Shown piece after piece: positions 734 to 27,427 of a stretch of 36,928 nucleotides of DNA (positions are counted from its first letter, which is position 1; every line of letters begins with the position of its first letter). Source of the DNA: Sphingomicrobium sp. GTDB lineage: Bacteria; Pseudomonadota; Alphaproteobacteria; Sphingomonadales; Sphingomonadaceae. Where the stretch lies: positions 1-36,928 of the forward strand of contig JBDTZJ010000001.1 in NCBI GenBank assembly GCA_040005255.1, read 5' to 3'. Under the pieces are notes generated by a model, which searched no databases, had not been told where the DNA came from, and saw nothing but the letters and a program-made list of their open reading frames with translations. The translations under genes and the position numbers were made by a program.

Positions 734-761
734 TGTGCCATTTGCCGCCCATGGCGATCCC
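734..761 (+). repeat. Degenerate copy of the 28-bp site
   Basis: TGTGCCATTTG-CCGCCC-ATGGCGATCCC. Confidence 0.4.
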
Positions 762-968
762 GTTTTTGTCACGAGGGCCGAGAGCAGAGACTATTACCTC
801 CTTTGGGCATCCACCATTTTGATCGGACTAATCGGCGGATGGGTGTGCGTTCTGTATGACGTGCGGGTTCGAAAGTCTGAACCGCCGCAATGGCCACTAG
901 CCTCGATTGTCACAGCAGGTGGGGCCTATTTCGTTCTGTATTATCTGAACTTGGCGTTCAATGCGTAA
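735..968 (+). CDS. Small membrane protein (2 TM), start uncertain
   Basis: Two hydrophobic segments; TAA 966-968 overlaps the 28-bp site. Confidence 0.5.
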   Translation: MPFAAHGDPVFVTRAESRDYYLLWASTILIGLIGGWVCVLYDVRVRKSEPPQWPLASIVTAGGAYFVLYYLNLAFNA

Positions 969-995
969 CGTCCGCTTTCCACCCTTTGCCGACGT
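968..995 (+). repeat. 28-bp 11-6-11 site
   Basis: ACGTCCGCTTT-CCACCC-TTTGCCGACGT. Confidence 0.9.
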
Positions 996-1109
996 CGTTA
1001 CGCGATCGAGCTGGGTGTGGTACGGAAAGCCTACCGCGCCCCATCACCGCTGGCCCGAGCGCCGCTGAGAGACCCGACCAGCGCTCCCGCCCATCGAAAG
1101 GAGCAAATC

Positions 1110-1628
1110 GTGGCCTCAACGATCGCCAGCGCTGACATCGCTCAAACTGTCACTCTAGACGATCCCGTCACCGGCGGGCCGCCACCTGCGCTTCATCGCG
1201 GTGATAGCGACTTGCCATTCGTGCCATATCAGGAGGGTGTCACCTTTCAGCTCATCCAGGTCGACATAGAAGCAGGCTTCTTTGTGGTTCGGGTGCGCGG
1301 CGAGCCGGGCATGACGATCCAGCGGCACAAGCATACCGGCGAGATCTTTGCGTTCACCTCGGCGGGGTCGTGGAAGTACCTTGAATATCCTGAGGTCAAT
1401 ACCGCCGGATCATATCTCTACGAGCCCGCCGGATCGGTCCATACCTTGCACTTCCCCGAGACAAACACAGAAGTCACTGACGTCTCGTTTGTGCTGCATG
1501 GAGCCAATCTCAACCTCGATAGCGAAGGCAACGTTGAATCCGTGCTCGATGCGGGCGCAGCGCTCGCGGTCTATTATGCCGGTTGCAAGAATGCTGGGCT
1601 GCCGCACCCCAACGTCATCGGTGCATAA
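1110..1628 (+). CDS. 2,4'-dihydroxyacetophenone dioxygenase-family (ChrR-like) cupin
   Basis: RBS AAGGAG before GTG 1110; cupin motifs RHKHTG, GSWKYLEY, GSYLYEPAGSVHTL. Confidence 0.8.
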   Translation: MASTIASADIAQTVTLDDPVTGGPPPALHRGDSDLPFVPYQEGVTFQLIQVDIEAGFFVVRVRGEPGMTIQRHKHTGEIFAFTSAGSWKYLEYPEVNTAGSYLYEPAGSVHTLHFPETNTEVTDVSFVLHGANLNLDSEGNVESVLDAGAALAVYYAGCKNAGLPHPNVIGA

Positions 1629-1629
1629 G

Positions 1630-1657
1630 GCGTCCGCCTTCGACCCGTTGCGGACAA
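1630..1657 (+). repeat. 28-bp 11-6-11 site
   Basis: GCGTCCGCCTT-CGACCC-GTTGCGGACAA, 1 bp after the cupin stop. Confidence 0.9.
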
Positions 1658-1665
1658 AGCTCGCG

Positions 1666-1830
1666 TCATTTCTCCTTCGGAAACCAGTAATCGTCGCCCG
1701 TGACAGTCTCGATGCGCTCTTCGTAGCGCCTGGCGAGTTCCTCGTGCGCAGTCCGCGCCTGCTGGGTCCCGGCCGTCTCTGACCGCCTTCGCTCTACCTG
1801 CTGTCGATGGAACAGGTAATTGAGATCCAC
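1666..1830 (-). CDS. 54-aa small helical protein MDLNYLFHRQQVERRRSETAGTQQARTAHEELARRYEERIETVTGDDYWFPKEK (not in ORF track)
   Basis: Translated by hand; GTG start with GGAGG RBS; lies between two 28-bp sites. Confidence 0.75.
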   Translation of the reverse strand: MDLNYLFHRQQVERRRSETAGTQQARTAHEELARRYEERIETVTGDDYWFPKEK

Positions 1831-1922
1831 AAAAACCTCCGCTCAAGTGGAGCGAGGGATAGGCAGGCGATAGCTGTTCGTCTCCTCGGTAACGACCGGT
1901 AGAGCCCCGCTTGGGTCGGGTA

Positions 1923-1950
1923 AGGTCCGCCTCCGACCCATTGCGGACAT
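1923..1950 (+). repeat. 28-bp 11-6-11 site
   Basis: AGGTCCGCCTC-CGACCC-ATTGCGGACAT. Confidence 0.9.
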
Positions 1951-1988
1951 TGGGTGCGCAGGCGATACGTACGTCGGTGCGGAAAGGT

Positions 1989-2396
1989 ATGTTCCTGGAT
2001 GTGCTCTCCAAGCGGGCTCCTCGGATGGTGGTACTCACGTTGTGTGCCGCGCTTGTGGGCGCGTGGACCAGCGTACCTGTTGAGTTGACCGACGGTCTTG
2101 CGATCCTGGTCGGCAGCTTGGCCCTGGTGCTATTGGCTGCAAGAGGGCGGCGGAATCAGTTCAAGACCGCGGAAGAATTAGGCTTCACTCGATTCAGCGA
2201 CAGGATTGCCTACGAACTCGCCGGGAAGGGGTCGCCTCCGGGCTTCTACCTGCTCGGTTTCTTTGGCGTCATCACCATTTTCTTGACCGGCTTCCAGTCG
2301 CCATACTCGAGGCTCGCTTGGGCAGGGTTCTTCCTCGGTGTCGCTTGGGGCATCGCGAACGCGCATTATCCGGCGGACGAAGCTTCGGAACACTAG
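1989..2396 (+). CDS. Hypothetical membrane protein (about 4 TM)
   Basis: GGAAAGG before ATG 1989; hydrophobic segments; TAG overlaps the next site. Confidence 0.7.
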   Translation: MFLDVLSKRAPRMVVLTLCAALVGAWTSVPVELTDGLAILVGSLALVLLAARGRRNQFKTAEELGFTRFSDRIAYELAGKGSPPGFYLLGFFGVITIFLTGFQSPYSRLAWAGFFLGVAWGIANAHYPADEASEH

Positions 2397-2423
2397 CGTC
2401 CGCTTTCCACCCATTGCCGACAT
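2396..2423 (+). repeat. 28-bp 11-6-11 site
   Basis: GCGTCCGCTTT-CCACCC-ATTGCCGACAT. Confidence 0.9.
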
Positions 2424-4144: not shown

Positions 4145-5554
4145 TTAGAGCGGCACGCCGTAAAGGTCGTGCTCGTCCGCGTCCTCGACTTCGACCGAAA
4201 CGATGTCTCCCGGCTTGAGGTCGCCGGCGTCGCGCAGGTGGACCTCGCCGTCGATCTCGGGAGCATCGGCCTTGGAGCGGCCGGTGGCGCCGACCCCTCC
4301 ACCATAAGAGGCCCCTCCACCGCCTTCGGCGGTCCCCCTCCCCTCGAAATCGAGGGGAGGATGTTCATCGACGCGGTCGATCAGGACGTCGATGGTCGAA
4401 CCGACCTTGGCGGCGAGCTTCTCGGCTGAAATGCGGGCGGACAGGGCCATCACCGCCTCGTATCGCTCCTGCTTCACATTCTCGGGAACCTGGCCGTCCA
4501 TCGACGTCGCCGGAGCGCCCTCGACCGCCTCGAACTTGAACGCGCCGACGCGGTCGAGCTGCGCTTCCTCGAGCCAGGCGAGGAGGTAGGCGAAATCCTC
4601 TTCGGTTTCGCCGGGGAAGCCGACGACGAATGAGGAGCGGATCGCGAGCTCGGGTACCTGCGCCCGCCAGGAACGGATGCGCTGCAGCACCGTGGCGTCG
4701 TTCGCTGGGCGGCGCATGCGCCTCAGGACATTCGGACTCGCATGCTGGAACGGGATGTCGAGGTAGGGGAGGACCAGTCCCTCGGTCATCAGCGGGATCA
4801 CATTGTCGACGTGCGGGTAGGGATAGACGTAGTGCAGGCGGACCCATGCCCCGAGCTTGCCCAGCTCGCGCGAGAGGTCGGTCATGTGGGCGCGGACTTC
4901 CTCACCCTTCCACTGGCGAGGCTCATGCCGGATGTCGACGCCATAGGCCGACGTGTCCTGGCTGATGACCAGCAACTCCCTGGTGCCGGCGGCGACGAGC
5001 TTCTCCGCCTCGCGCAGGATCGCGTCGGGACGGCGGCTGACGAGGTCGCCGCGGAGGTGCGGGATGATGCAAAAGGCGCAGCGGTGGTTGCAGCCCTCGG
5101 AAATCTTCAAATAGCTGTAGTGGCGCGGGGTCAGCTTGAGGCCCGGCCCAAGGTCTCGGGCTGGCACGAGGTCGATGAACGCGTTCGGGATTGGCGGCGC
5201 CGCCTCGTGGACCGCGGCGACGACTTCCTCATATTGCTGCGGCCCGGTGACGGCGAGCACTTGCGGGAAGCGGGCCCGGATGACGTCGGCTTCCTTGCCC
5301 ATGCAGCCGGTGACGACGACGCGGCCGTTCTCGGCAATCGCCTCGCCAATCGCCTCGAGGCTCTCCGCCTTGGCGGAATCGAGAAAGCCGCAGGTGTTGA
5401 CCAACACCACGTCGGCCCCGGCATAGTTGGGCGACATGTCGTAACCGTCGGCGCGCAGCTTGGTCATGATCCGCTCGCTGTCCACGAGGGCCTTGGGACA
5501 GCCGAGCGAGACCAGCCCGACGCGCGGGGGCTTGGGGAGAGTTGTGACGTTCAT
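4145..5554 (-). CDS. rimO: Ribosomal protein S12 methylthiotransferase RimO
   Basis: [17 protein letters not shown], radical [15 protein letters not shown] domain [12 protein letters not shown]. Confidence 0.96.
4294..4363. repeat. Partial palindromic repeat element inserted in frame in rimO
   Basis: CCCCTCCACCGCCTTCGGCGGTCCCCCTCCCC-tcgaaatcga-GGGGAGGATG is nearly identical to 33659-33710. Confidence 0.88.
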
Positions 5555-11333: not shown

Positions 11334-11465
11334 ATGAGATTGTTCAAGGCGAACCGACCCGCGCAGTCCGAAGCGGACCGGGCGCGCGACCTCCGGCTGA
11401 CGTCGATCGCCAGCCGCTACCGTGTGCGGTCCGAGGCCGCGCCGCAGCCCGAAAAGAGCGAATGA
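11334..11465 (+). CDS. 43-aa hypothetical protein MRLFKANRPAQ... (not in ORF track)
   Basis: AAAGGGGA RBS, ATG 11334, TGA 11463-11465. Confidence 0.45.
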   Translation: MRLFKANRPAQSEADRARDLRLTSIASRYRVRSEAAPQPEKSE

Positions 11466-11475
11466 CCGCGATCGC

Positions 11476-11661
11476 ATGACACGTCCCAGGCTGAGCATGG
11501 CGGCGGCCGCTGCCCTGGCGCTCGCGGCCGGCGCCTGCGACCGTCTGCCGCAGCGGAGGGGTCCGAGCGCGGTGACCGTGAAGCTGCCGCCGCCACGGGC
11601 GGCCGCGCCCGGCTTTGCGTTCGGCGGTGCACAGCATGCCGCCAAGACGGGGCTTCGCTAA
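11476..11661 (+). CDS. Small putative lipoprotein
   Basis: Hydrophobic stretch ending in lipobox-like LAAGAC. Confidence 0.55.
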   Translation: MTRPRLSMAAAAALALAAGACDRLPQRRGPSAVTVKLPPPRAAAPGFAFGGAQHAAKTGLR

Positions 11662-11720
11662 ATGGCGCGCGAGGGGTAAGATGCGGCGGAACCCCGAACG
11701 CATCGCACTGGAGGGGGATC

Positions 11721-11891
11721 ATGAAGCTGTTCATCGTCTTCGCATTGTTCGTCTGGCTGCTGTGCGGGTTTGTCGGCGCATGGTGGCAGGACGGCATCGG
11801 CCACATGCACTTCAAGGCCATCGCCAGGGGGCCGATCACCCTGGTCCACGCCTTCAATGAGAATCCGGTGACCTATCCGGGACCGACTTGA
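11721..11891 (+). CDS. 56-aa membrane protein MKLFIVFALFVWLLCGFVGAWW... (not in ORF track)
   Basis: GGAGGGGG RBS, ATG 11721, TGA 11889-11891. Confidence 0.7.
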   Translation: MKLFIVFALFVWLLCGFVGAWWQDGIGHMHFKAIARGPITLVHAFNENPVTYPGPT

Positions 11892-11905
11892 TTTGCTCTA
11901 GAGGC

Positions 11906-12478
11906 TCAGGCGGCCTGCAGCGCTTTCGACCGACGGCGGCGCATGGCGACGCCCATCGCGCCGAAGCCGAGAAGCATCATCGCCCATGTCGAGGGTTCGG
12001 GCACGCCCCCGCCGACGTTGATCACGAAATCGTCGAGATAGGTCGGGCCGGAGGTGGTCCCGTAAATCCCGAAGCCGACGAGGTTCTTGCCGGCCGCGAG
12101 GTTGCTGGTGACATTATACTGGTTCCAGCCCGACGCGCCGATGGCGTTGAGGATGAAGTCTTGCGACGTACTGTCGCTGTAGAAGAAGGTGTAGAGGTCG
12201 AATGGACCGCCGTCGCGCAACGCCCAGAAGGACACTTCGGTGATCTGCGACGTCGCAACGGCGCCGAAGGTCTGCTTGATCTGGTCCTCCGCGAACGCCG
12301 CGTCGGAATAAGTGCCGCTGTGCGCCTGGGCGCTGCTCACCGTCGGGGTGCCATTGGCGATCGTCCACGAAGCGAAGGTGCCGGTTTCGAAGCCGGGGTT
12401 GGACAGAACGTTCGATGCCTGGGCCGGAACGGCGAGCGAGCCCAGAACAAGCGCCGGGATCAAGAATTTGCGAAGCAT
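11906..12478 (-). CDS. PEP-CTERM (PEPxxWA) sorting-domain surface protein
   Basis: Signal peptide, NPGFETG, C-terminal VPEPSTWAMMLLGFG-TM-RRRR. Confidence 0.92.
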   Translation of the reverse strand: MLRKFLIPALVLGSLAVPAQASNVLSNPGFETGTFASWTIANGTPTVSSAQAHSGTYSDAAFAEDQIKQTFGAVATSQITEVSFWALRDGGPFDLYTFFYSDSTSQDFILNAIGASGWNQYNVTSNLAAGKNLVGFGIYGTTSGPTYLDDFVINVGGGVPEPSTWAMMLLGFGAMGVAMRRRRSKALQAA

Positions 12479-12512
12479 GTCGGCCCCCGTTAACGCGAAA
12501 GAGCCAGTGGAG

Positions 12513-12528
12513 TTAACAGAAGATTAAC
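12513..12528. promoter_or_regulatory. CtrA-binding box
   Basis: TTAA-cagaaga-TTAAC, 35 bp upstream of the PEP-CTERM start. Confidence 0.6.
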
Positions 12529-12767
12529 GCTAGTCAATGAAGCAGCTCGCAATTGGGTATTTTCCGCCGGTCCGTTGGCCCGGTCGACCAGCTCCGGGGC
12601 CGGATCGAGAGCATTGAGCGTCAATCCGGTCTGAATGTTCACGAAAGTTCGCGCTAACGGCGGGCGAAACCCAGCGCGTGTCACAAGCGCCGGCATTGGC
12701 CCCTGCCGTGAGGAGACGTCAAAGAGGGAGGAAGGTGCGGTTTAGCGCCCAAACCGTCGATTTCTAC

Positions 12768-12795
12768 TAGTAGCATAATCTATGTTATGCGGCGC
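12768..12795 (-). other. dif-like XerC/XerD site
   Basis: Minus strand GCGCCGCATAA-CATAGA-TTATGCTACTA versus E. coli dif GGTGCGCATAA-TGTATA-TTATGTTAAAT; intergenic, AT-rich flank. Confidence 0.7.
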
Positions 12796-12948
12796 GCCAA
12801 AAAACGACAATAGACGAGCAGAAACAATCAAATAATGATGGACCGTCTTTGGTCAAAAATCTTGCGAAATAAATAGACTTTTCGATGAAGAATGCGTAAG
12901 TAAACCTGTCGCTATTTTCGATACGGGCATTTTAGCGGTTGAGAGTGT

Positions 12949-13236
12949 ATGTGCTCCCGCCTGCCGAAGGTGATTCAAATGAGCGGATTGATCCATTCCC
13001 AGCTGATGGAAGTCAGGGCTTCCCCCAGGATCTCTGCCAAGCGGGACACGCCGGACAAGTGCCGCGAGCGCGCGAGCGAGGACCTCCTCAAGTCGGTCAC
13101 CATGGTGACCGCCAACCAGCGCATCATCCTCGAGCGCAGCGCGGCCAGCTGGACCGAGCGCGCGCATTTGCTTGACCGGGTCGCAAGGGGCGCAAGCGAC
13201 AATGACGGCTCCGCCCCGGAAGGGCTGAGAGCATGA
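12949..13236 (+). CDS. Small helical hypothetical protein, start uncertain
   Basis: ORF stop overlaps the next start (ATGA). Confidence 0.6.
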   Translation: MCSRLPKVIQMSGLIHSQLMEVRASPRISAKRDTPDKCRERASEDLLKSVTMVTANQRIILERSAASWTERAHLLDRVARGASDNDGSAPEGLRA

Positions 13237-13457
13237 GCCGCGCCATCCTGCTTTCCATGGAGGAAGCCCAGGTCCGCGCCAAGTGCCTTGCTTCCAATGT
13301 CGGGGTGTCGGCGATCGAGCGCCTTGTCGACGGCGGAGTCCGCCTGGTGTGCATGAGCGGAAATGGCGCCGAGCTCATCCGCAAGCAGCTCAAGTCCCAT
13401 CTGATCAAGGGCGAGGCGACCAGGGAGCGGTTTCGGCCAAGAACTCTGTTGTGGTGA
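13233..13457 (+). CDS. Hypothetical protein, 74 aa
   Basis: Coupled to upstream ORF; GVSAIERL..GGVRLVC. Confidence 0.7.
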   Translation: MSRAILLSMEEAQVRAKCLASNVGVSAIERLVDGGVRLVCMSGNGAELIRKQLKSHLIKGEATRERFRPRTLLW

Positions 13458-13565
13458 GCCGCCGCTAACCCGGCGCACCATCGGCGGCGCGTCAGCGGCT
13501 TGACCGAGCCTCACCCGTAGAATCTTCGGCTCCACCGTGCGATATGGGCCTCCGGAGGCCGGCCA

Positions 13566-14269: not shown

Positions 14270-14458
14270 CTAAAGCTCGATCTTCGCCACCAGCTGGTGA
14301 CCGTCCCATAGTTCGCATTTCGACGCATCGTGATTGTTCGTCTTGACGGCGGCGACCGCATCCTCATCGCTGTCGGCGTCGAGTTCATCAACGCTGAGGA
14401 ACATGCCGAGGTGATCCAGAATGTAGACGCGGTACCTGGGTTCGCGCTCTTCAGACAT
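14270..14458 (-). CDS. 62-aa hypothetical protein
   Basis: YRVYILD...ADSDEDAV...ELWDG pattern of small alphaproteobacterial proteins. Confidence 0.7.
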   Translation of the reverse strand: MSEEREPRYRVYILDHLGMFLSVDELDADSDEDAVAAVKTNNHDASKCELWDGHQLVAKIEL

Positions 14459-14593
14459 GAGGCCCCCGATCCAGCGGGAGCGCTACGCAGTCTCTCAGTC
14501 GCCGACTCGCTACGACCAGTGACGGCGATGGGGGATTACGGCACCGAATCAAATCATCTGCAAGTGGGGGTGCGCAAGGTCGCAATCCCCGCA

Positions 14594-14622
14594 TTATCCG
14601 CTTTTTCATTCATTACGGACAT
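14594..14622 (+). repeat. Degenerate copy of the 28-bp site with one extra T
   Basis: TTATCCGCTTT-TTCATTC-ATTACGGACAT. Confidence 0.65.
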
Positions 14623-14827
14623 GAGTTCCCCCCGAAGGGCGGAACGTAACCCGAGGCGGTTCGCTCTCCCTTGGGTGAAAGCCGACGCCGACGCATTTCG
14701 TAAACGCGCTGACCATTGTCGCCGTCTGGCTGACGGTACCAGGGACACGAATGCGCAACGGGAGCTTCGCACCATGGCGGTGGATCTGGATGACGAGGCG
14801 GTGAAGATTGATAGTGACGACGCCTGA
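14621..14827 (+). CDS. Small helical hypothetical protein (start 14621 or GTG 14675)
   Basis: FRKRADHCRRLA...QRELRTMAVDLDDEA. Confidence 0.55.
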   Translation: MSSPRRAERNPRRFALPWVKADADAFRKRADHCRRLADGTRDTNAQRELRTMAVDLDDEAVKIDSDDA

Positions 14828-15914
14828 ACCGACGGCCGAGACTAGTCCCAGCATAGCTAAGGTTGAGAACGAGATCCCGCAGGAGCAAGCTGTCGTCCGC
14901 GCGCTTCCAAAAGCGGAGGCTCTCGGACCGATATTGTCTCGCCGATTCAAACCCTATCGCGCCGATGTCAGGCGAAGCATCTTTCAGCTGGTTACGACCG
15001 CGACGCCGTTCATCGCGTTGCTCGTGGTGATGGCGGTAGCATCGCCTGGCCGCTACTGGCTGACCCTGTTGCTGGCGATTCCGACGGCTGGACTGCTCGT
15101 TCGCCTTTTCATCATCCAACATGACTGCGGTCACGGCTCGTTTTTCAAATCACGAGCCGCCAACGACTTCCTCGGGCGCGCGCTTAGCGTGCTGACGCTC
15201 ACTCCCTACGGCTGCTGGAAGCTAAGTCATGCCGCGCATCATGCCTCCGCCGGCAATCTGGACCGCCGTGGGCGTGGGGATGTGGAAACCTTGACCGTTG
15301 CCGAATATCAAGCCTCGGCGCCGCTCAAGAAGCTCGTTTATCGACTCTACCGCAATCCGTTCGTGATGGTCATATTGGGTGCGCCGATCAACTTCATCCT
15401 ACTGCATAGATTGCCGCTGGGCCACGAGTTCCGGGACCGTAAATCGCGCCGCAGCATCCTGTCGCTGGATCTCGCGTTGCTCGTGGCGTTCGGTCTTCCC
15501 TGCGCTATGTTCGGCGTCCTTCCAGTCCTGGGAACGTATCTCCCCGTGATGATCATTGCATCCTGGGTCGGGAACTGGCTGTTTTACGTGCAGCACCAGT
15601 TCGAAGGGACACATTGGGAGCGCGACGGCGAATGGGATTTCCACGAAGCCGGCGTAGGCGGCAGCTCATATTTTAAGCTTCCGCCGATCCTGCAATGGTT
15701 TTCCGGGAACATCGGGCTGCACCACGTGCACCACTTGTCTAGCCGGATTCCCAACTACCGCCTTCAGGCCTGTCTCGACGCCGCTCCGGAACTGCACGGC
15801 GTCTCCAAACTCATAACTCTGCGTGAGAGCCTGGGATGCTGGCGGCTGGCGCTTTGGGACGAGAGCAGCCGCTTGTTGGTGGGATTTCGGGATCTAAAGC
15901 CTCGGCTCGCTTAG
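14808..15914 (+). CDS. Membrane fatty acid desaturase
   Basis: His boxes HDCGH, HAAHH and HHVHH; WLFYVQHQFE. Confidence 0.93.
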   Translation: MIVTTPEPTAETSPSIAKVENEIPQEQAVVRALPKAEALGPILSRRFKPYRADVRRSIFQLVTTATPFIALLVVMAVASPGRYWLTLLLAIPTAGLLVRLFIIQHDCGHGSFFKSRAANDFLGRALSVLTLTPYGCWKLSHAAHHASAGNLDRRGRGDVETLTVAEYQASAPLKKLVYRLYRNPFVMVILGAPINFILLHRLPLGHEFRDRKSRRSILSLDLALLVAFGLPCAMFGVLPVLGTYLPVMIIASWVGNWLFYVQHQFEGTHWERDGEWDFHEAGVGGSSYFKLPPILQWFSGNIGLHHVHHLSSRIPNYRLQACLDAAPELHGVSKLITLRESLGCWRLALWDESSRLLVGFRDLKPRLA

Positions 15915-15938
15915 CCGATACATCCGTAAGACGGGCGT

Positions 15939-16220
15939 CTAACGGGTCTGGCGTTTTGGGCGAGACGGCCGCTTTTCTGCCTTCTCTTGCGCCCTCGCGA
16001 TCTCCCGCTGTTCATCCCGATGAGACTTGTAGCGGAATCCCATTCCAAGGATTGAGGTGGCCATGCCCGCGATCAAGGCTGGCAAGTACCACCAGGGCGC
16101 GTCTGCCTTAAGCGCCGCAACCGCGCCCAGGAACAACACGCTGACAATGGAGGTGAGATAGCCGATCGCCTTCCAATCGACGCCTTTGGTTGCGGGCGTG
16201 GTTATGCGTCGCTGACTCAT
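15939..16220 (-). CDS. Small membrane protein (2 TM)
   Basis: ATG 16220; two hydrophobic helices and a charged tail. Confidence 0.65.
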   Translation of the reverse strand: MSQRRITTPATKGVDWKAIGYLTSIVSVLFLGAVAALKADAPWWYLPALIAGMATSILGMGFRYKSHRDEQREIARAQEKAEKRPSRPKRQTR

Positions 16221-16419
16221 GATTTCTAAACGAGCGCTGGCCGGGTGTGTTTCCTCGGCCCCAGGCGAGAGGGGCTGAGCACGACCCACTGCGGCGATTT
16301 GAAACCTAGGATAGGTCCAATGTGACCGACGACACCCGCGAGCGGCGGTGCTCAAACTCGCAGGTTGTCGGCCGCGCCAAGCACGCGCATGATCGGTTCG
16401 TTTTGCAGGAGGCTAGAGC

Positions 16420-16998
16420 ATGATCTTGATGCCAGGAACGCTGGTCGTGGTTGCCGGAGCAATGCAGGTCGCGGTGCCGGTCTTGCGGGTTCCGCCGGCG
16501 GTCACGCGTCCGCCAAACGCCGCCATCGCGCCGTCTACCGCGATCCAGGCGAATATTCTTCCCGACCTGGTCGTATCCGAAGTGCGGATCGAAGATGATC
16601 ATACCGCCCATATCCGCATCACCAACCAGGGGACCGCGGACGCGAAAGGGTGGATCCAGGTCGAATCCAGCGTGTCGAAAGGCTACCATCGCGGATACAC
16701 ACTTCCCGCATGGGTCAACGACCTTGCAGCGGGCGAGAGCAAGTGGGTGACAAGCGGAAACTACGTGGATCGCGACGAAACCTTCGTGCCAGGCAAAGAC
16801 ATGAGCATGCCGCTGTCGACGGTGACCGGGTTCAGCGCCACCGTTGACCCCGGCGCTCCTCCGCAGAGCATGGAAGATTATCTGCTGCAAGGAAAATCCC
16901 CGTGCACGGCGCAGGCGGGCTGCATTCGCGAGCTTGACGAGACGAACAACAACCGCGGTTTCACGGCTGACCAAATCGGTCACGGCAAACCGGATTGA
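16420..16998 (+). CDS. Secreted CARDB/Ig-like domain protein
   Basis: AGGAGG RBS; PDLVVS, ITNQG, VDP...IRELDETNN. Confidence 0.65.
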   Translation: MILMPGTLVVVAGAMQVAVPVLRVPPAVTRPPNAAIAPSTAIQANILPDLVVSEVRIEDDHTAHIRITNQGTADAKGWIQVESSVSKGYHRGYTLPAWVNDLAAGESKWVTSGNYVDRDETFVPGKDMSMPLSTVTGFSATVDPGAPPQSMEDYLLQGKSPCTAQAGCIRELDETNNNRGFTADQIGHGKPD

Positions 16999-17151
16999 GT
17001 TCGGAGGCCAGGCGCCCCCCTCTCCCTCATCAACGCACCGCGTCATGCGTCATTCATCGCTATTCTGCGAGGGTCAGCCATCACCTGAGATCGCAACCGA
17101 GCGCCCTGTGACAGAGAGACACTTCCGTGCTCTCGCTCGCAGGAGACGGTC

Positions 17152-17373
17152 ATGGAAAAGACACATTGGCTCAGCCGTAAGCGCGCGTCGCTGAAGCTGG
17201 CGAAAGAGGCGGCCAACTCCGAAGCGCGGCTGGTGCATTACGATCTCGCCGGCCGCTACAGTTTGAAGGCGCTTTCGGCCGAGAGCCAGGCGACCGATCT
17301 CGCCGATGCGCTGCCGCCCGCGATCTACGCCATCGGCGCCGATGCGTCGGGCAAGGACGCTTCCGATGCTTGA
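17152..17373 (+). CDS. Small helical hypothetical protein
   Basis: AGGAG RBS; RKRASLKLA...EARLVHYDLAGRY. Confidence 0.7.
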   Translation: MEKTHWLSRKRASLKLAKEAANSEARLVHYDLAGRYSLKALSAESQATDLADALPPAIYAIGADASGKDASDA

Positions 17374-17590
17374 GGCTGGAGGGATTTTCGGGCTGTTCGC
17401 GGCGCTCTTGCTGATCGCATCGGTGGTGATCTGGGCAAAACGGCTTCGCGGACCTTTGCTGCAACGGCTCAACGGCCGGCGGACGTCGAACGTGCGTCCA
17501 ACCGAGCTGGCATCCCAAGTGCTGGTCTTCGCTTTGGGGCTGAGCGCGCTCGCCGCTGGGCTGGCGATCGTCGGGTGGATTTTCGCGTAA
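17366..17590 (+). CDS. Small membrane protein (2 TM)
   Basis: ATG overlaps the end of the upstream gene; two hydrophobic segments. Confidence 0.55.
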   Translation: MLEAGGIFGLFAALLLIASVVIWAKRLRGPLLQRLNGRRTSNVRPTELASQVLVFALGLSALAAGLAIVGWIFA

Positions 17591-17834
17591 GCGAACTAGG
17601 CATGGATTGCGCTTCCAGGCGGACAAGGTCCAGCAGCAGCTGCGTCGCCAGTTACGCCAGTGCCGGTTGATCGTGAGGCACGGTCGTCAGCTACTCATGC
17701 TTGCGCAGGCTATCCCGACCGTCGCTAACCTGAGATCGCAGTAACAAGACCGAATTCCGACCGCCGCTCCTCGGCGTCCTCTCGCAGCCTGACCGCATTA
17801 CTTTGCCGCATTGGTTGTCCGCCCAGGCGCGCCG

Positions 17835-18698
17835 CTACTTGCGGCGATGAGATGAGCGGCGGTGCTTCTTGGATCGCGGCTTCGCCACGGTTTTGTACCG
17901 TGTGACGTACTTCGTGACGACGTTTTTAGTAGTCGTTGCGGCACTGGTCGACTGCACAGCTTGGGAAACGCTGTTCGAGGCAGGTGCGCCATACGCGGTT
18001 GAGCGGGAGATCCACCGGCCTTGCGTATCATAGTACCCCCAAGTGCTCCCGGCGTGCCAACGCCCGTACGCGTCGTAATAGCCTGGCTCTGGATCCGGCA
18101 CCCAGCGGCCGCTGCTGTCCTGGTGCCAAGCGGGTGCGCCCGAGATCCACCTACCGCTTTGGTCATAGTGCCCGACAGCGGGGCCGGGCACCCAGTGACC
18201 ATTGACGTCATAATAGCCGCTCGCTTCAGGGGGCGCGGGCTCGCCGTTGGCCTCGTAATAGCCGTCTGTAGCAACTGGAATCCAGTGACCGTGGGCGTCG
18301 TAGTAGCCACTCCTCGAAGGATCCGTCCCCGTCGGGACCCACTGGCCATTGGCGTCATAATAGCCATTGGGCAGGCCGGTCACCCAGTTGCCGTTGCGGT
18401 CGTAATAGCCAGTCGCAGGAGCGCGGTTGGCTACTCCGACGTGCCAAACCCCGCTCTGATCATAATAGCCATACGCGTCGGGGCGCCTTTGATCGTATGG
18501 AACGCAACTCACTGTTGCACTGGCCCCGGTCACGGCATCACTGATCGCTCCAATAATTGCGCCGGCAGTGCCGCCCACGGCATTACCAATTGTTGAGCCA
18601 GTGTTGGGGGACGTCGGTGCGCAAATCGGCTGAGCCGACGCTGCAGCCGGCATCACCGTCGCGGCGAACAGACCGCCAAACAGGACGGACTTGAGCAT
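17835..18698 (-). CDS. Secreted glycine-zipper protein with about 10 GYYDxxGxW repeats and basic tail
   Basis: GGAGG RBS before ATG 18698; signal peptide; visible repeats. Confidence 0.85.
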   Translation of the reverse strand: MLKSVLFGGLFAATVMPAAASAQPICAPTSPNTGSTIGNAVGGTAGAIIGAISDAVTGASATVSCVPYDQRRPDAYGYYDQSGVWHVGVANRAPATGYYDRNGNWVTGLPNGYYDANGQWVPTGTDPSRSGYYDAHGHWIPVATDGYYEANGEPAPPEASGYYDVNGHWVPGPAVGHYDQSGRWISGAPAWHQDSSGRWVPDPEPGYYDAYGRWHAGSTWGYYDTQGRWISRSTAYGAPASNSVSQAVQSTSAATTTKNVVTKYVTRYKTVAKPRSKKHRRSSHRRK

Positions 18699-18725
18699 GG
18701 AAGCCTCCAATAGAATTCCCCCGGA

Positions 18726-18751
18726 AACGTTCAGAAGGTGATTGCCGTTCC
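18726..18751 (-). promoter_or_regulatory. EcfG/sigmaT general-stress promoter motif
   Basis: Minus strand GGAAC-N17-CGTT, 27 bp upstream of ATG 18698. Confidence 0.65.
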
Positions 18752-18888
18752 AAAACAAGGACTAAGTATCGTCCGGTGGCCAGCTCATCAGGCCAGATGC
18801 CGTCATCACCAAGGTAGATGTTCCGATCCTCCTGACCGACGTCGTCCGCGGAGCCATTATCGGTTGGGCCCCGCTCAGTTCGTACTCT

Positions 18889-18916
18889 AGGTCCGCTTTC
18901 CACCCATTGCGGACAT
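18889..18916 (+). repeat. 28-bp 11-6-11 site
   Basis: AGGTCCGCTTT-CCACCC-ATTGCGGACAT. Confidence 0.92.
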
Positions 18917-18926
18917 CGCAGCGCAT

Positions 18927-19166
18927 TCAACGTGACACTCTGATGGCTGGCGCTTCCACCGCGTTGAACTGGAGCGTGAACAGCGTAAGACCTTTGTCGT
19001 CGGCAACCGTCATCATGAAATCGCCTGTGTTCCAGAACTCGCTAGCTCGGTCACAGAGCAGGCGGCCCGCGTAGCGGACGGCTTCGCATTTCGCGGACGC
19101 GAGGTTGGGGAGGTCTATCCCTAACTCCTCCGGCGGTCCGTCCACTTGGAAGTAGAAGCGAGGCAT
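18927..19166 (-). CDS. DUF6894-like small protein
   Basis: MPRFYF...GIDLPNLASAKCEA...VADDKGLTLF. Confidence 0.75.
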   Translation of the reverse strand: MPRFYFQVDGPPEELGIDLPNLASAKCEAVRYAGRLLCDRASEFWNTGDFMMTVADDKGLTLFTLQFNAVEAPAIRVSR

Positions 19167-19265
19167 TGTCGGGTAACCGACATACACGACAGAAGTGCCA
19201 ATAGTGATACGATTGGGAGCGAGTGGGTGAAAAAAGACACAATCTCAAGCTGTGACGGCTGTTCG

Positions 19266-19293
19266 ACGTCAGCGTTCCACCCGTCCATGACAC
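19266..19293 (+). repeat. 28-bp 11-6-11 site with diverged arms
   Basis: ACGTCAGCGTT-CCACCC-GTCCATGACAC. Confidence 0.7.
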
Positions 19294-19307
19294 TAGCGAG
19301 TTAGGTT

Positions 19308-19335
19308 AGGTCTGCTTTCGACCCAAACCCGACAT
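19308..19335 (+). repeat. 28-bp 11-6-11 site
   Basis: AGGTCTGCTTT-CGACCC-AAACCCGACAT. Confidence 0.8.
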
Positions 19336-19677
19336 AAGATCGCACCCCTTAGACTGTGCCGCCATGGCTGGACCTACCAGCTGCTTGGATCCACTCTCCC
19401 GGCGCGGTTCAGGAAACGCGAAATGCCGCAGATCAAGATGAGTCCCGCTTCCCCACGCATTCTAAAAATTCGTCCAGTGATTGCGTTTCCGCCCGACGAA
19501 CCGCTTGTTCGGGGGCATGGTGACATCGATTACATTATGTCCGAATTAGAATGGCCCTGCCCCGCTTCCTGAGCGTTGAGATACCTAAGTTGGGTGCGGT
19601 CTGCTTCGTAACTTCGCCCCTGCCGTGATGGCGCTCATTCCTCACGGCCGAATCCTCCGCGAAGCGGGAGATAAGTA

Positions 19678-20289
19678 ATGAACTCGGAACAGATGCTGCA
19701 ACAGACGGGCGCTGTCGAAGCGATCTCGCGCGAGCTCGGAGTAGACCCGGCAACGGCGCAGGCGGGAGCAGCGGCGTTAATGCCGTCCATCCTTTCCGGC
19801 TTCAAGAACCCAGCCTCATCGACGGAGTCGCAACCCGCGACTGGAGAGGGAGCAAGCGACAGTGCTTTTCCAGGGTTCGGCGGGCTCAACGGATTGCTCG
19901 GGACGATTGGCGGATTGGGCGGCAGTGGCCTGCTTGAAAACGTGACCTCGAACGAGCCGACCGAACTCAGCAAAGGCAATCAAATCCTGGGGCAGATCTT
20001 CGGTTCGAAGGATGGTAGCCGCGCTGTTGCGGCACAGGCGGCCGCGCAGTCGGGCGTCGAGCCTTCTCTCCTAAAGAAAATGCTGCCTATCCTCGCGATG
20101 GTTGCTGCCGGCTACGTCATGAAGCGCGCGGGCCAGGGCGGCGGCGGGCTTGGCGGGGGATTCGGAAGCGTGCTCGGGGGGCAACCTTCACCTGAGGGTT
20201 CGGCGCGTGCCCAGCGAGCGGAGCCGACGGGCTCGAACGACATTCTGGGCGAGCTGATTGGTGCGGCTGGCAAGTTCCTCGGCCGCTGA
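19678..20289 (+). CDS. DUF937-like glycine-rich protein
   Basis: GNQILGQIFGSKDGSRAVA, LLKKMLPILA. Confidence 0.8.
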   Translation: MNSEQMLQQTGAVEAISRELGVDPATAQAGAAALMPSILSGFKNPASSTESQPATGEGASDSAFPGFGGLNGLLGTIGGLGGSGLLENVTSNEPTELSKGNQILGQIFGSKDGSRAVAAQAAAQSGVEPSLLKKMLPILAMVAAGYVMKRAGQGGGGLGGGFGSVLGGQPSPEGSARAQRAEPTGSNDILGELIGAAGKFLGR

Positions 20290-20324
20290 CGCGGTCAAAG
20301 CAATTTCGATAAAGGAGACTAACA

Positions 20325-20726
20325 GTGAGCATTTTCGGAAAAATCAAAGACGCGATCTTCGGTCATAAGACCGCTTCAGCTCCCGCCGGTGGCGGGCAAA
20401 TCCCCGTAGGTGGACCATCCCCAGGCAATGCTGCGGCCCCGGCGCCGACGTTGGAGCCTGCTGTGGCTGTCGATGTCGAGCAGGTCCTGACGAGTATTGC
20501 CGCCTCGAAGGGCAATGCAGGCCTCAACTACAGAACTTCGATCGTCGATCTGATGAAGCTGCTTGGCATGGATTCGAGCCTCGAGAACCGCAAGGAATTG
20601 GCCACCGAGCTTGGCTACACCGGCGAAAAGGACGGCAGCGCCGAGATGAACATTTGGCTACACAGGGAAGTGATGCGTCAACTGGCCGCAAATGGCGGCA
20701 AGGTTCCTTCCAGCATGACCGACTAA
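20325..20726 (+). CDS. DUF3597-like protein
   Basis: AAGGAG RBS; SIVDLMKLLG.DSSLENRKELA.ELGY.G, MNIWLH. Confidence 0.85.
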   Translation: MSIFGKIKDAIFGHKTASAPAGGGQIPVGGPSPGNAAAPAPTLEPAVAVDVEQVLTSIAASKGNAGLNYRTSIVDLMKLLGMDSSLENRKELATELGYTGEKDGSAEMNIWLHREVMRQLAANGGKVPSSMTD

Positions 20727-20784
20727 CCTGAACGATTACAGGCGGGGCTGTGGCACGGAAGCCGCCGCCCCGCCCGGCGGGCCA

Positions 20785-20812
20785 ATGTCCGCTTTCCACC
20801 GAAATCGGACAC
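20785..20812 (+). repeat. 28-bp 11-6-11 site at the right edge of the accessory patch
   Basis: ATGTCCGCTTT-CCACCG-AAATCGGACAC, 5 bp from the parE stop. Confidence 0.88.
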
Positions 20813-24898: not shown

Positions 24899-25426
24899 GT
24901 GATGCGTAAGATCGTTCTTTCCATTGCCACGGCAGGCGCGGCGCTCATCGCCGCCAGTCCCGCCGCAGCCCAGTACTACCCGCAGCCGCAGTCCTACGGC
25001 TATGGCGGGCAGCCCTACGGTTATGGCCAGCAATATGGCTACGGGTTCCAGAACAACTACGGCCAGGTCCGGGCGTTGCAGGCGCGGCTGAACAACGTCG
25101 AGCGGCAGATCAACCGCCTCGACCGCCGCGACCGCATTGGCGACCGCAGCGCGGACCGGCTGCGCTACGAGGCGAACCGGCTCGAGCAGCGGCTCCGCTA
25201 TTCGGCCCGGGGTGGGCTGAACCCCTACGAGATGCGTGACATCGAGGTGCGGATCGCGCAGCTCGAACAACGCGTTCAATATTCGCTCGCCAATGGCTAC
25301 GGCCGTTACGGCTATGGCAACGGCTACAATGGTTACGCTTATGCCGACCGGGACGGTGACGGCCGTGACGACGCGATCGAGCATCAGCGCTGGCACCAAA
25401 ATCACGACGGCGACCGCGACGATTAA
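24899..25426 (+). CDS. Secreted Tyr/Gly/Arg-rich coiled-coil protein
   Basis: AAGGAG RBS; signal peptide; DRDGDGRDD near the C-terminus. Confidence 0.85.
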   Translation: MMRKIVLSIATAGAALIAASPAAAQYYPQPQSYGYGGQPYGYGQQYGYGFQNNYGQVRALQARLNNVERQINRLDRRDRIGDRSADRLRYEANRLEQRLRYSARGGLNPYEMRDIEVRIAQLEQRVQYSLANGYGRYGYGNGYNGYAYADRDGDGRDDAIEHQRWHQNHDGDRDD

Positions 25427-25451
25427 ATTGTGGCGTTAGTGCGCGTAAAGG

Positions 25452-25481
25452 AAGGCGCTCCGGGAGACCGGGGCGCCTTTC
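25452..25481 (+). terminator. Intrinsic terminator
   Basis: AAGGCGCTCCGG-gaga-CCGGGGCGCCTTT. Confidence 0.65.
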
Positions 25482-25564
25482 GCGTTTCGGCTGGCTTTGC
25501 CCTCGCGCGGGCCGCTGGCTATAGGCGCGAAAACCGCATCATCGCTGCAAACAGGGAGCCCGCC

Positions 25565-26755
25565 TTGGCCACCACTCCGCTCATGCCCGTTTACCCGCGT
25601 TCGCCGGTCCGCCCGGTCCGCGGCGAGGGAGTCTATCTCTACGGAGAAGAGGGCGAGCGCTATCTCGATTTCGCCGCTGGCATCGCGGTCAACATCTTGG
25701 GTCACGGCCACCCGCACTTGACCAAAGCGATCCAGGAGCAGGCGGCGACGCTGATGCACGTGTCGAACCTGTACGGATCCCCGCAGGGGGAGGCGTTCGC
25801 CAAGCGGCTTTGCGATTTGACCTTCGCCGACACGGTCTTCTTCACCAATTCGGGCGTCGAAGCGGTCGAGTGCGCGATCAAGACGGCGCGCAAATATCAT
25901 CACGCCAAGGGCAACCCGCACAAGCACGACCTCATCACTTTCTCCAGCGCCTTTCACGGCCGCACGATGGCGGCGATCAGCGCCACCGACCAGGGGAAGA
26001 TGATCGACGGCTTCGCGCCGCTGCTGCCGGGCTTCAAAGTTGTCGAGTTCAACGACCTCGACGCGGCGCTGGCCGCGATCGACGAGAATACGGCCGGCTT
26101 CCTGCTCGAGCCGATCCAGGGCGAGGGCGGCATCCGCCCGGGCACCCACGAGTTCCTGTCGGGCCTGCGCGCCGCATGCGACGAGCATGACCTGATGCTG
26201 GTGTATGACGAGGTCCAGTGCGGGGTCGCGCGCAGCGGGCATCTCTACGCCTACCAGCATTACAATGTCGCCCCGGACATCATGGCGACCGCCAAGGGCA
26301 TCGGCGGCGGCTTCCCGATGGGCGCGTGCCTGGCGAGCGAGAATGCCGCGGCGGGGATGGTGATCGGCACCCACGGGTCGACCTTTGGCGGCAACCCGCT
26401 GGCGATGGCCGCGGGCCAGGCGGTGTTCGACATCGTCGCCAACGAGGAGTTCCTGAGCGAGGTGCGGCAGAAGGGTGAGCGGCTGCGCTCGGCGCTCGAG
26501 CAGATGATCCCCAACCACGACCATATTTTCGAGAGCGTGCGCGGCGTCGGGCTGATGCTCGGCATTCGCATGACGACCGACAGCCGGGCGTTCGTGAATT
26601 ACCTCCGCACCAAGGGGCTGCTGACGGTCGCGGCGGGCGACAATGTGATGCGCGTGCTTCCGCCGCTCGTCATCGAGGAAAGCCACATCCGCGAGTTCGT
26701 CGAGACTCTGTCGGCCGCGGCAGGCGAATATGAGGTGCCGGCCGAGGCGGCCTGA
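25565..26755 (+). CDS. argD: Acetylornithine aminotransferase
   Basis: TTG start after AGGGAG; FHGRT, EPIQGEGG, DEVQCG, AKGIGGG, HGSTFGGNP. Confidence 0.92.
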   Translation: MATTPLMPVYPRSPVRPVRGEGVYLYGEEGERYLDFAAGIAVNILGHGHPHLTKAIQEQAATLMHVSNLYGSPQGEAFAKRLCDLTFADTVFFTNSGVEAVECAIKTARKYHHAKGNPHKHDLITFSSAFHGRTMAAISATDQGKMIDGFAPLLPGFKVVEFNDLDAALAAIDENTAGFLLEPIQGEGGIRPGTHEFLSGLRAACDEHDLMLVYDEVQCGVARSGHLYAYQHYNVAPDIMATAKGIGGGFPMGACLASENAAAGMVIGTHGSTFGGNPLAMAAGQAVFDIVANEEFLSEVRQKGERLRSALEQMIPNHDHIFESVRGVGLMLGIRMTTDSRAFVNYLRTKGLLTVAAGDNVMRVLPPLVIEESHIREFVETLSAAAGEYEVPAEAA

Positions 26756-26790
26756 AGCGCATGCCCTTTGCTGGATCGTTCTGTAGCAGT

Positions 26791-26819
26791 CGTCATCCCG
26801 GCTCAAGGCCGGGATGACG
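26791..26819. repeat. REP-like hairpin
   Basis: CGTCATCCCGGC-tcaag-GCCGGGATGACG, perfect 12-bp stem. Confidence 0.7.
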
Positions 26820-26877
26820 GGTTGTTGTCGCCCCGCTCAACCAATCCTTCTGAGCGATGAGTGCTCGATCAACCCCT

Positions 26878-27168
26878 TCACATCTTGTGATGCATCATTC
26901 GATGGTGGTGACGCATCATCTTCCGGCATTGCTTGTTGCGCATCATTCTGGCGCGACTTAGCCGGTGGCATGACTTCATCGACATCATCATGGTCGAATG
27001 CGACATCCGATGAGTAGCCATGGTGTGGCTCTTCGGCATGGTTTTGTGCATCTCCGCCGCACTCGGACTCATATTGTTGCCCATCGCGCTGTTGGTCATT
27101 TGCGCGCCGAGTGGCGTGCTCATTGCGACCACAGCCGCCAGCGCAAGTGCGCCTTTCAAACCGATCAT
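26878..27168 (-). CDS. Secreted Met/His-rich small protein
   Basis: AGGAG RBS; signal peptide; Met/His-rich mature part with two Cys. Confidence 0.75.
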   Translation of the reverse strand: MIGLKGALALAAVVAMSTPLGAQMTNSAMGNNMSPSAAEMHKTMPKSHTMATHRMSHSTMMMSMKSCHRLSRARMMRNKQCRKMMRHHHRMMHHKM

Positions 27169-27399
27169 AGGATAGCTCCTCACAGCCGCGTCTTCTCAAG
27201 CATCCACCATGAAGCGGTCACAGGGTGAAACTCTACCCAAAGTGAGGTCGGAACGGTAGCGGGTCCGCGCTCGAATGCACTTGGCGACTCGAGTATTTCT
27301 CAAAGATAGAAAGATGACTGCAGAACACATTCGGCCCGTTGAAGTTGCACACTGGGCGGTGAATACGGGCTCGGGTAGGCGTTGCTCACCTACTTAGTA

Positions 27400-27427
27400 A
27401 TGTCCGCTTTCCACCCAAAGTAGACGT
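27400..27427 (+). repeat. 28-bp 11-6-11 site
   Basis: ATGTCCGCTTT-CCACCC-AAAGTAGACGT. Confidence 0.85.

What the first reader, a model, noticed from the sequence alone, without database searches (positions are those of the whole stretch)
734..27427. Dispersed, co-oriented 28-bp 11-6-11 sites delimit accessory genes: candidate cassette recombination system
Seen: nine clear copies (968, 1630, 1923, 2396, 18889, 19266, 19308, 20785, 27400) and degenerate copies (734, 14594) of ATGTCCGCTTT-C(C/G)ACCC-ATTGCGGACAT. The arms are imperfect inverted repeats and vary, while the asymmetric core and the GTC/GAC positions are nearly fixed. All copies have the core on the + strand. I found them only in accessory patches, not between consecutive housekeeping genes. 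Established: 11-6-11 with an asymmetric core is the layout of tyrosine-recombinase sites such as dif/pdif, and direct repeats give excision/integration. Inference: these are att-like sites of a gene-capture system analogous to integrons or pdif modules, with a different site and a recombinase encoded elsewhere. I do not recognise it as a named system but cannot exclude prior description.
Basis: partly seen in the sequence, partly recalled or inferred. Interest (0 to 1): 0.92.

Follow-up and report, generated by a model that had tools for sequence, protein, structure and literature searches.

The report
Tiny recombinase, two converging cassette arrays
The 28-base repeats are real and mark the swap points of mostly single-gene DNA cassettes across a soil bacterial genus; they are likely cut and rejoined by a very small recombinase whose gene sits where two cassette arrays meet, which would make this an integron-like gene-collecting system in a bacterial class that almost lacks integrons.

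Summary
Nine sites are confirmed; 734 is chance and 14594 fits only with a one-base gap. The genome holds 92 copies, 91 outside well-supported genes, and 70 of 72 neighbouring pairs are co-oriented; 178 of 201 genus genomes carry them. Shared cassettes keep only their inner arm, so exchange occurs in the core. The arms do not covary, which argues against an attC hairpin. A 203-aa, catalytic-domain-only tyrosine recombinase sits where two arrays converge: 29 of 29 intervals holding it are convergent, against 0 of 575 co-oriented ones. This genome's copy is outside the window and broken. Against: only 25 of 178 site-bearing genomes have an intact copy, empty argD-hslO alleles keep no site, and activity is untested. 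It fails integron, pdif and REP tests, and ten literature searches found no description. The scan reported this system before on other DNA, including this genus.

The parts
968..995 (+). site, core CCACCC (C type)
   Evidence: score 34.5
996..1629 (+). cassette 1 body: one cupin gene (1110-1628, PF12973); its stop ends 1 bp before the next site
   Evidence: Pfam; 13 homologues elsewhere confined to this interval
1630..1657 (+). site, core CGACCC (G type)
   Evidence: score 29.5
1658..1922 (-). cassette 2 body: one 54-aa ORF (1666-1830), no Pfam family
   Evidence: my ORF caller; one homologue confined to this interval
1923..1950 (+). site, core CGACCC (G type)
   Evidence: score 34.8
1951..2395 (+). 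cassette 3 body: one 135-aa ORF (1989-2396) with no Pfam family; its stop overlaps the next site
   Evidence: 12 homologues elsewhere confined to this interval within 10 nt
2396..2423 (+). site, core CCACCC; last of the left array, followed by a beta-lactamase-family serine hydrolase gene with no closing site found
   Evidence: score 41.1; PF00144
14594..14622 (+). probable decayed site with one extra base
   Evidence: chance level ungapped, 22.2 with a one-base gap
18889..18916 (+). site, core CCACCC
   Evidence: score 45.5
18917..19265 (-). cassette body: DUF6894 gene (18927-19187)
   Evidence: PF21834
19266..19335 (+). doublet: worn C-type site (19266) then G-type site (19308), 42 bp apart; same C-then-G order as 88 of 119 doublets spaced 33-38 bp
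   Evidence: scores 14.9 and 36.6
19336..20784 (+). cassette body: DUF937 gene (19678-20289) and DUF3597 gene (20325-20726)
   Evidence: related pair also in contig C140 and L223
20785..20812 (+). site, core CCACCG, 5 bp from the parE stop
   Evidence: score 33.8; sites in the same orientation in this region in 9 of 20 relatives
27400..27427 (+). lone site, core CCACCC, 78 bp before hslO, at the edge of an insert between argD and hslO
   Evidence: score 38.5; gap 751 bp here against 31-43 bp in 9 relatives without a site

Best explanation
The repeats are the junctions at which mostly single-gene cassettes have been exchanged, and they are likely double-stranded recombination sites of a dedicated 203-aa tyrosine recombinase that would add cassettes on both sides of its own gene. 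Shown: the crossover lies in the central core, because a cassette travels with the right arm of its upstream site and the left arm of its downstream site. Shown: the recombinase gene is bracketed by two inward-facing sites, nearly always with core CCACCC, with an array on each side in opposite orientation. Shown: the protein keeps all six catalytic residues and has no core-binding domain. Inferred: two protomers bind the arms of each site and four synapse two sites, as for Cre/lox or Xer/dif; sites in direct repeat excise a circle and a circle integrates into a site. Inferred: the two gene-flanking sites are the main entry points, like two attI sites. Inferred: base 13 (C or G) lies in the exchanged overlap and partners with the same base are preferred, which would keep the C-then-G doublets and the excess of G-to-C cassettes; a cassette carrying a doublet could then enter either site type. 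Inferred: arrays without the gene, such as those in this window, are orphans, like CALINs, served in trans or frozen; this genome's only copy found is broken.
For: Breakpoints: among 819 distinct sites, 19 groups share only the downstream flank (right-arm mismatches 21 vs 61.6 expected, left-arm 41 vs 48.7) and 13 share only the upstream flank (left 15 vs 33.3, right 42 vs 42.2); no pair shares both flanks at 76% or more after identical contexts were collapsed. A 390-bp, 100% identical segment occurs on two contigs of this genome with both ends inside sites; same-length cassettes with matching ends also occur twice in G104 and in G122. The three left-array cassettes match 26 places in 20 of 270 genus genomes, each within one interval to 10 nt. 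Enzyme: I predicted a gene at the orientation switch of G034 and found an intact copy there. A 31-row clade of 101 recombinases (SH-aLRT 98, quick tree) has a site within 600 bp in 30 rows; the nearest upstream site is co-oriented in 25 of 25 and the nearest downstream site opposite in 28 of 28; 12 of 25 lie 45-48 bp before the start, 11 of 28 within 7 bp of the stop; base 13 is C in 51 of 53. All 29 intervals holding the gene are convergent, against 0 of 575 co-oriented and 0 of 9 divergent intervals. All 25 genomes with an intact clade copy have sites; none of the 23 site-free genomes has a full-length one (counted by hand). R54, K82, H151, R154, H177 and Y186 are invariant in 38 sequences; the model (pLDDT 86) matches XerA, XerH and Cre. 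No cross-arm covariation beyond expectation.
Against: No activity was tested, and reads gave no circle or clean excision joint. Only 25 of 178 site-bearing genomes have an intact clade copy; of five site-rich, near-complete genomes re-searched, two had short remnants and three only Xer-level matches. Eight convergent junctions have no recombinase. At argD-hslO, 9 short empty alleles keep no site, and sites in filled alleles lie 46-155 bp from hslO, so the first insertion at a new place is unexplained. The region behind parE is hypervariable with or without sites. 14 of 26 cassette homologues have no site scoring 10 or more at either expected end, and one (L247) has a piece of another window cassette nearby. 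A 235-bp exact duplicate (C47/C96) has ends outside sites. Positions 6/23 covary weakly (p 0.012). Strict core matching is broken in 6 of 32 shared-flank groups. Outside the genus, 1 of 5 site-rich genomes had a full-length family member, with no site in its 2.7-kb locus. How a protein without a core-binding domain reads an 11-14-bp arm is not explained.
Confidence: 0.78

Rival explanations
1. The recombinase gene with its two inward-facing sites is a selfish, insertion-sequence-sized module. Arrays are pile-ups at its sites, and most later shuffling is by double crossover with incoming linear DNA between unlike C and G sites, or by host homologous recombination between the repeats, not by circle excision and integration.
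For: The module is about 700 bp in many loci and sits at different places, twice in G104 and in G213. G-to-C cassettes outnumber C-to-G ones 213 to 62 of 563, as expected if unlike sites bracket a unit that cannot excise itself. Most site-bearing genomes lack the enzyme. An earlier scan note (e1-5128486) reads a relative this way.
Against: Arrays on both sides face the gene (109 + to 13 - upstream, 122 - to 2 + downstream), which random landing in existing one-way arrays would not give. 273 of 563 cassettes have like cores. 28 bp with variable arms is short for RecA (general knowledge).
Confidence: 0.12
2. The sites are pdif-like and are recombined by host XerC/XerD or another housekeeping recombinase; the short recombinase is cargo.
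For: 28-bp 11-6-11 layout. Xer-sized recombinases are present in this genome and in the site-rich genomes that lack the short enzyme.
Against: The inner arms are CTTT and AWWG, not the ATAA/TTAT of dif (dif consensus recalled). Sites are co-oriented, not alternating. 23 genus genomes have no site. Cargo would not sit only in convergent intervals at fixed distances.
Confidence: 0.06
3. The repeats act as single-stranded DNA or RNA hairpins (attC-like, REP-like, terminator or operator), and cassette boundaries are a by-product.
For: Imperfect palindromes, 91 of 92 outside well-supported genes, often at stop codons (129 of 259 and 61 of 136 within 15 nt).
Against: Watson-Crick pairing across the arms equals expectation from base frequencies, and the commonest form has T-T mismatches at 9/20 and 10/19. 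Arms are inherited separately. No IntI over cut-off and no Y1/RAYT in 5 genomes. No Rfam match in the window.
Confidence: 0.04

Closest known systems
Integrons and CALINs (IntI, attI, attC)
   Same: Tyrosine recombinase next to arrays of mostly one-gene cassettes separated by co-oriented sites; stop codons abut sites; many arrays lack the enzyme; cargo is diverse (22 of 49 cassette ORFs have no Pfam family).
   Different: Enzyme is 203 aa with no core-binding domain and is not IntI; the site is a conserved 28-34-bp sequence with crossover in its centre and no hairpin covariation; arrays lie on both sides and converge; a third of single genes face the other way. Only 6 complete integrons were found in Alphaproteobacteria (PMC9024848, passage).
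pdif modules recombined by XerC/XerD (Acinetobacter; features recalled)
   Same: 28-bp 11-6-11 double-stranded sites around gene modules, crossover in the spacer.
   Different: No Xer arm consensus, direct instead of alternating orientation, chromosomal arrays, own recombinase, up to 140 pattern matches per genome.
Inverted repeats around the Z/fun locus of P2-like coliphages (Nilsson et al. 2004)
   Same: Short repeats said to allow site-specific exchange of single genes (seen only as a sentence in review PMC8987985). Earlier scan notes link that repeat to small recombinases like this one.
   Different: No enzyme, array or two-sided platform in the passage read. The paper is not held, so identity of the sites was not tested.
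FimB/FimE-type short tyrosine invertases
   Same: About 200 aa, catalytic domain only (recalled for FimB/FimE); inverted sites are present, here around the gene itself.
   Different: Scores 23.6 and 22.6 bits against cut-offs of 221 and 222; dozens of direct-repeat sites, not one switch.
Pseudomonas rulB 'integron-like elements' (PMC4542609, passages)
   Same: Tyrosine recombinases beside variable cargo.
   Different: Three recombinases, one insertion site, and the authors found no repeats or attI.

Membership tests
Integron | IntI integrase | tested here: not met
   0 of 5 genomes over the TIGR02249 cut-off; P0002 has no IntI hit in NCBIfam and is 203 aa
Integron | attC: structure-conserved single-strand hairpin, crossover at its edge | tested here: not met
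   no cross-arm covariation in 363 sites; crossover between the arms
Integron | one attI at the integrase and one array | tested here: not met
   two inward-facing sites and two arrays
Integron | arrays of mobile, mostly one-gene cassettes between co-oriented sites | tested here: met
   395 of 524 cassettes hold one ORF; median spacing 731 bp; duplicates and shuffled neighbours
Integron | cassette genes in one orientation, read from Pc | tested here: not met
   259 with, 136 against the site strand; promoters not examined
Integron | cassettes excise as circles | not testable with these tools
   only assembled contigs were available; no informative joint
pdif / XerCD | 28-bp 11-6-11 layout | tested here: met
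   (13-8-13 fits too)
pdif / XerCD | XerC and XerD arm consensus (recalled) | tested here: not met
   consensus; the recalled dif core pattern matched one unrelated place and none of the sites
pdif / XerCD | alternating, inverted site orientation around modules (recalled) | tested here: not met
   70 of 72 neighbouring pairs co-oriented
pdif / XerCD | dependence on XerC and XerD | not testable with these tools
   needs a bench assay
REP / RAYT | Y1 HUH (RAYT) gene in the genome | tested here: not met
   0 of 5 genomes; G000 is 71% complete
REP / RAYT | conserved hairpin with GTAG/GGAG foot (recalled) | tested here: not met
   flank consensus CTA...TAG, no covariation
Tyrosine recombinase superfamily (candidate enzyme) | R-K-H-R-H-Y catalytic set and fold | tested here: met
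Simple YRs of PMC8138268 (CB + CAT domains) | core-binding domain | tested here: not met
   model has one short helix before the catalytic domain; passages; its supplementary datasets were not read
FimB/FimE invertases | family model cut-off | tested here: not met
P2 Z/fun inverted repeat | same site sequence and enzyme | not tested
   paper not held

The most novel reading that the evidence does not exclude
This is a third, undescribed class of bacterial gene-cassette platform besides integrons and pdif: a catalytic-domain-only recombinase with two entry sites feeds two converging arrays, uses heterospecific C and G cores to sort cassettes, fills the integron niche in Alphaproteobacteria, and belongs to a family spread across Proteobacteria with lineage-specific cores.
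Probability: 0.6. Interest if true: 0.93.

Novelty: new variant of a known kind. Interest (0 to 1): 0.85.

Why it matters
A large soil genus (178 of 201 genomes) appears to store and shuffle accessory genes in arrays that have neither IntI nor attC-type sites, so integron searches would be expected to miss them. That offers an explanation for the near absence of integrons in Alphaproteobacteria. Cargo includes detoxifying and signalling genes, TIR-TPR proteins and a rifampin ADP-ribosyltransferase homologue, so the system may feed environmental gene flow. The enzyme is about two thirds the size of Xer and lacks the domain that the classification of PMC8138268 gives to all simple recombinases. 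If active, it is a compact lox-like tool with natural heterospecific sites. Enzyme, site and crossover point are now defined well enough for a direct plasmid test.

Tried and rejected
Rfam scan of the window: 0 matches. Reads: only Logan contigs exist; joints were short repeat matches and were set aside. One contig from another study follows the window from 824 to 993 and then diverges at site 968, which is a single contig and only a hint. Contigs of run X1 cover the broken recombinase without change, but X1 may be the source sample. Replication-strand bias was not tested formally; listed places in G034 and G035 show both orientations along the chromosome. A dif-like 16-mer at 12774 was not recovered convincingly in five relatives. 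IntI and RAYT searches were negative. Only 3 of 50,697 phage records hold a family member at E 1e-30. PADLOC gave 2 partial TIR hits in 28 proteins, so the cargo is not mainly defence. The out-of-genus prediction of a recombinase at orientation switches failed in G374. The careful tree did not finish; the quick tree is used. Literature searches found no description; one search used recalled labels and returned only unrelated papers. PMC3091744 and PMC13586616 passages were not relevant.
Full report
Observation. The nine clear sites are real and all on the + strand. A matrix built without window sites scores them 14.9-45.5, against a maximum of 10.3 in 3.4 million shuffled positions; 734 is chance and 14594 fits only with one base skipped. 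The window is contig C36 of G000, a 1.7-Mb, 71% complete genome of 65.7% G+C. The nearest named relatives of its short recombinase are Sphingomicrobium and soil Sphingomonas, so I take the host to be Sphingomicrobium (inference). G000 has 92 sites on 15 contigs in 20 clusters; 70 of 72 neighbouring pairs are co-oriented. One of 92 lies inside a well-supported ORF where 83% of the DNA is coding, and 51 cassettes average 59.3% G+C (gene calls are from my own ORF scorer). The pattern occurs in 178 of 201 genus genomes, up to 140 times, with 0 matches for the reversed control.

Site anatomy. In 363 distinct sites the core is C[C/G]ACCC, the arms are imperfect inverted repeats and the symmetry extends to about 34 bp. 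Watson-Crick pairing across the arms equals what base frequencies predict (for example 0.33 vs 0.31 at 9/20, where T-T is commonest). The strongest correlations are within an arm; 6/23 covaries weakly (p 0.012). That is the pattern of a protein-read double-stranded site whose arms are reshuffled, not of a conserved hairpin.

Cassettes move, and the crossover is in the core. A 390-bp segment is 100% identical on C96 and C179 and both ends fall inside sites. Among 819 distinct sites from G000 and fetched loci (identical contexts collapsed first), no pair shares both 50-nt flanks. 19 groups share only the downstream flank and keep the right arm (21 mismatches vs 61.6 expected) but not the left (41 vs 48.7). 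13 groups share only the upstream flank and keep the left arm (15 vs 33.3) but not the right (42 vs 42.2). Five of the 19 are recombinase-proximal sites. Cassettes of equal length with matching ends occur twice in G104 (343 bp) and G122 (352 bp); only the ends were compared. Base 13 differs in 6 of 32 groups, against 16.4 expected, and is swapped at both ends of the G122 pair. So it lies in the exchanged region and a mismatch is sometimes tolerated (inference). The three left-array cassettes of the window match 26 places in 20 of 270 genomes, each within one interval to 10 nt. Twelve of the 26 have a site at one or both expected ends, 14 have none scoring 10, and one has a piece of another window cassette nearby.

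Array grammar. Of adjacent pairs within 5 kb, 702 are co-oriented, 36 convergent and 6 divergent; loci were partly chosen around the recombinase. Median spacing above 100 bp is 731 bp; 395 of 524 cassettes hold one ORF, 259 on the site strand and 136 opposite; about half end within 15 nt of a site. Doublets 33-38 bp apart run C then G in 88 of 119, while longer cassettes run G to C in 213 and C to G in 62 of 563. A genome of another family (G374) has similar arms, two other cores and doublets in a fixed order in 4 of 5 close pairs. Of 49 cassette ORFs, 22 have no Pfam family; the rest are varied.

Candidate enzyme. On C5 the orientation switches between 9325 and 9895, across a broken tyrosine-recombinase gene that is 121 bp shorter than the intact copy in L029 and frameshifted. 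I predicted a gene at a switch in G034 and found an intact 203-aa copy. It has the six catalytic residues invariant in 38 sequences, models as a catalytic domain with one short helix before it, resembles XerA, XerH and Cre and reaches no NCBIfam cut-off. Of 101 distinct family members, a clade of 31 (SH-aLRT 98 in the quick tree) has a site within 600 bp in 30. The nearest upstream site is co-oriented in 25 of 25 and the nearest downstream site opposite in 28 of 28; within 8 kb the counts are 109 to 13 upstream and 122 to 2 downstream; base 13 is C in 51 of these 53 sites. All 29 inter-site intervals holding the gene are convergent, against 0 of 575 co-oriented and 0 of 9 divergent intervals; 8 convergent intervals lack it. 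All 25 genomes with an intact clade copy have sites, and none of 23 site-free genomes has a full-length one (counted by hand; kin are not independent). Only 14 of the other 70 family members have this exact site within 8 kb, but several lineages show related half-sites at fixed distances with other cores (read by eye).

Results against. Activity is untested, and contigs of six runs gave no usable joint. 153 of 178 site-bearing genomes have no intact clade copy with this query; of five re-searched, two had remnants. Behind parE, 9 of 20 relatives have sites (24 in the window's orientation, 1 opposite; 4 of the 20 were chosen because their match reached the site), but the region varies in all. 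At argD-hslO, 3 of 29 relatives have sites, in the window's orientation; 9 short empty alleles have none. So seeding of new arrays is unexplained; entry at worn, unrecognised targets is my guess. A 235-bp exact duplicate has ends outside sites. Across the class, 23 of 300 other genomes match, mostly with core TGACCC; 1 of 5 site-rich ones had a full-length family member, with no site beside it.

Mechanism. Best reading (0.78): lox/dif-type recombination by the short enzyme at the core, with two entry sites beside its gene, growth of two converging arrays, preference for matching base 13, and orphan arrays elsewhere, including this window. Junction position, geometry and catalytic residues are shown; catalysis, circles, entry order and core preference are inferred. 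Rivals are a selfish module with double-crossover or host-driven shuffling (0.12), host XerCD (0.06) and a hairpin or regulatory role (0.04).

Comparison with what is known. It works like an integron or pdif array but fails their defining tests: no IntI, no attC behaviour, no Xer arm consensus or alternating orientation (dif and pdif features recalled), no RAYT. Papers: PMC9024848, passages (6 complete integrons in Alphaproteobacteria); PMC8138268, passages (simple recombinases have CB and CAT domains); PMC8987985, passages (P2 fun gene flanked by inverted repeats, citing Nilsson 2004); PMC13586616, PMC4542609 and PMC3091744, passages; PMC4889954, search listing only; Nilsson 2004, not held. 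No supplements were read; the datasets of PMC8138268 may already list this family. Ten searches found no description, but most subscription papers are not in the library. The scan's own unchecked notes report the same kind of system on other DNA, including this genus. My reading was stated before the first look-up, and the notes are not counted as support. Tallies include unpublished genomes (G020, and in some G105 and G129); G020 is one of the 25 with an intact copy, and L020 enters.

Verdict. Observation confirmed, interpretation supported and extended. New variant of a known kind (recombinase-driven cassette platform), possibly a class of its own. Interest 0.85.

Noticed in passing
window 12769-12796: A dif-like site in an AT-rich gap, the only match to a recalled XerC/XerD core pattern in G000 and absent from four relatives; a looser search of five relatives gave only two-mismatch hits. 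Unverified.
   Followed up: partly
window 4312-4364, 33583-33616, 33659-33712: A second, unrelated palindromic repeat family (53 nt, 96% identical copies), also on other contigs; looks like an alphaproteobacterial REP-type repeat (recalled).
   Followed up: no
L005:4204-4620: A rifampin ADP-ribosyltransferase (PF12120) gene fills a cassette between sites 4162 and 4673.
   Followed up: partly
G000 C5:6146-7927, C179:5999-7774: TIR-TPR proteins of about 590 aa as single-gene cassettes, with similar starts on C47 and C105; PADLOC matches only the TIR part.
   Followed up: partly
L272-L274 (G374): Similar arms with two other cores, doublets 45-55 bp apart, and no recombinase at the switches examined.
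   Followed up: partly
L072, L074-L076, L080, L082, L087, L096: Rhizobial family members have related sites 25-27 bp after the stop and 63-67 bp before the start, with two different cores and a fixed gene-side arm.
   Followed up: no
L008:6561-6646, L126:1721-1786, L154:1052-1132: Convergent site pairs only 38-58 bp apart, possibly platforms that lost the recombinase gene.
   Followed up: no
G104 and G213: Two clade copies of the recombinase per chromosome, each with its own converging arrays; inversion of the gene between its flanking sites is possible but was not examined.
   Followed up: no
window 11334-20800: Many small accessory ORFs without bounding sites; homologues of the 226-aa gene at 13565-14245 are site-bounded in C5 and L196.
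   Followed up: partly
window 31144-31270: Low-complexity coding repeat.
   Followed up: no
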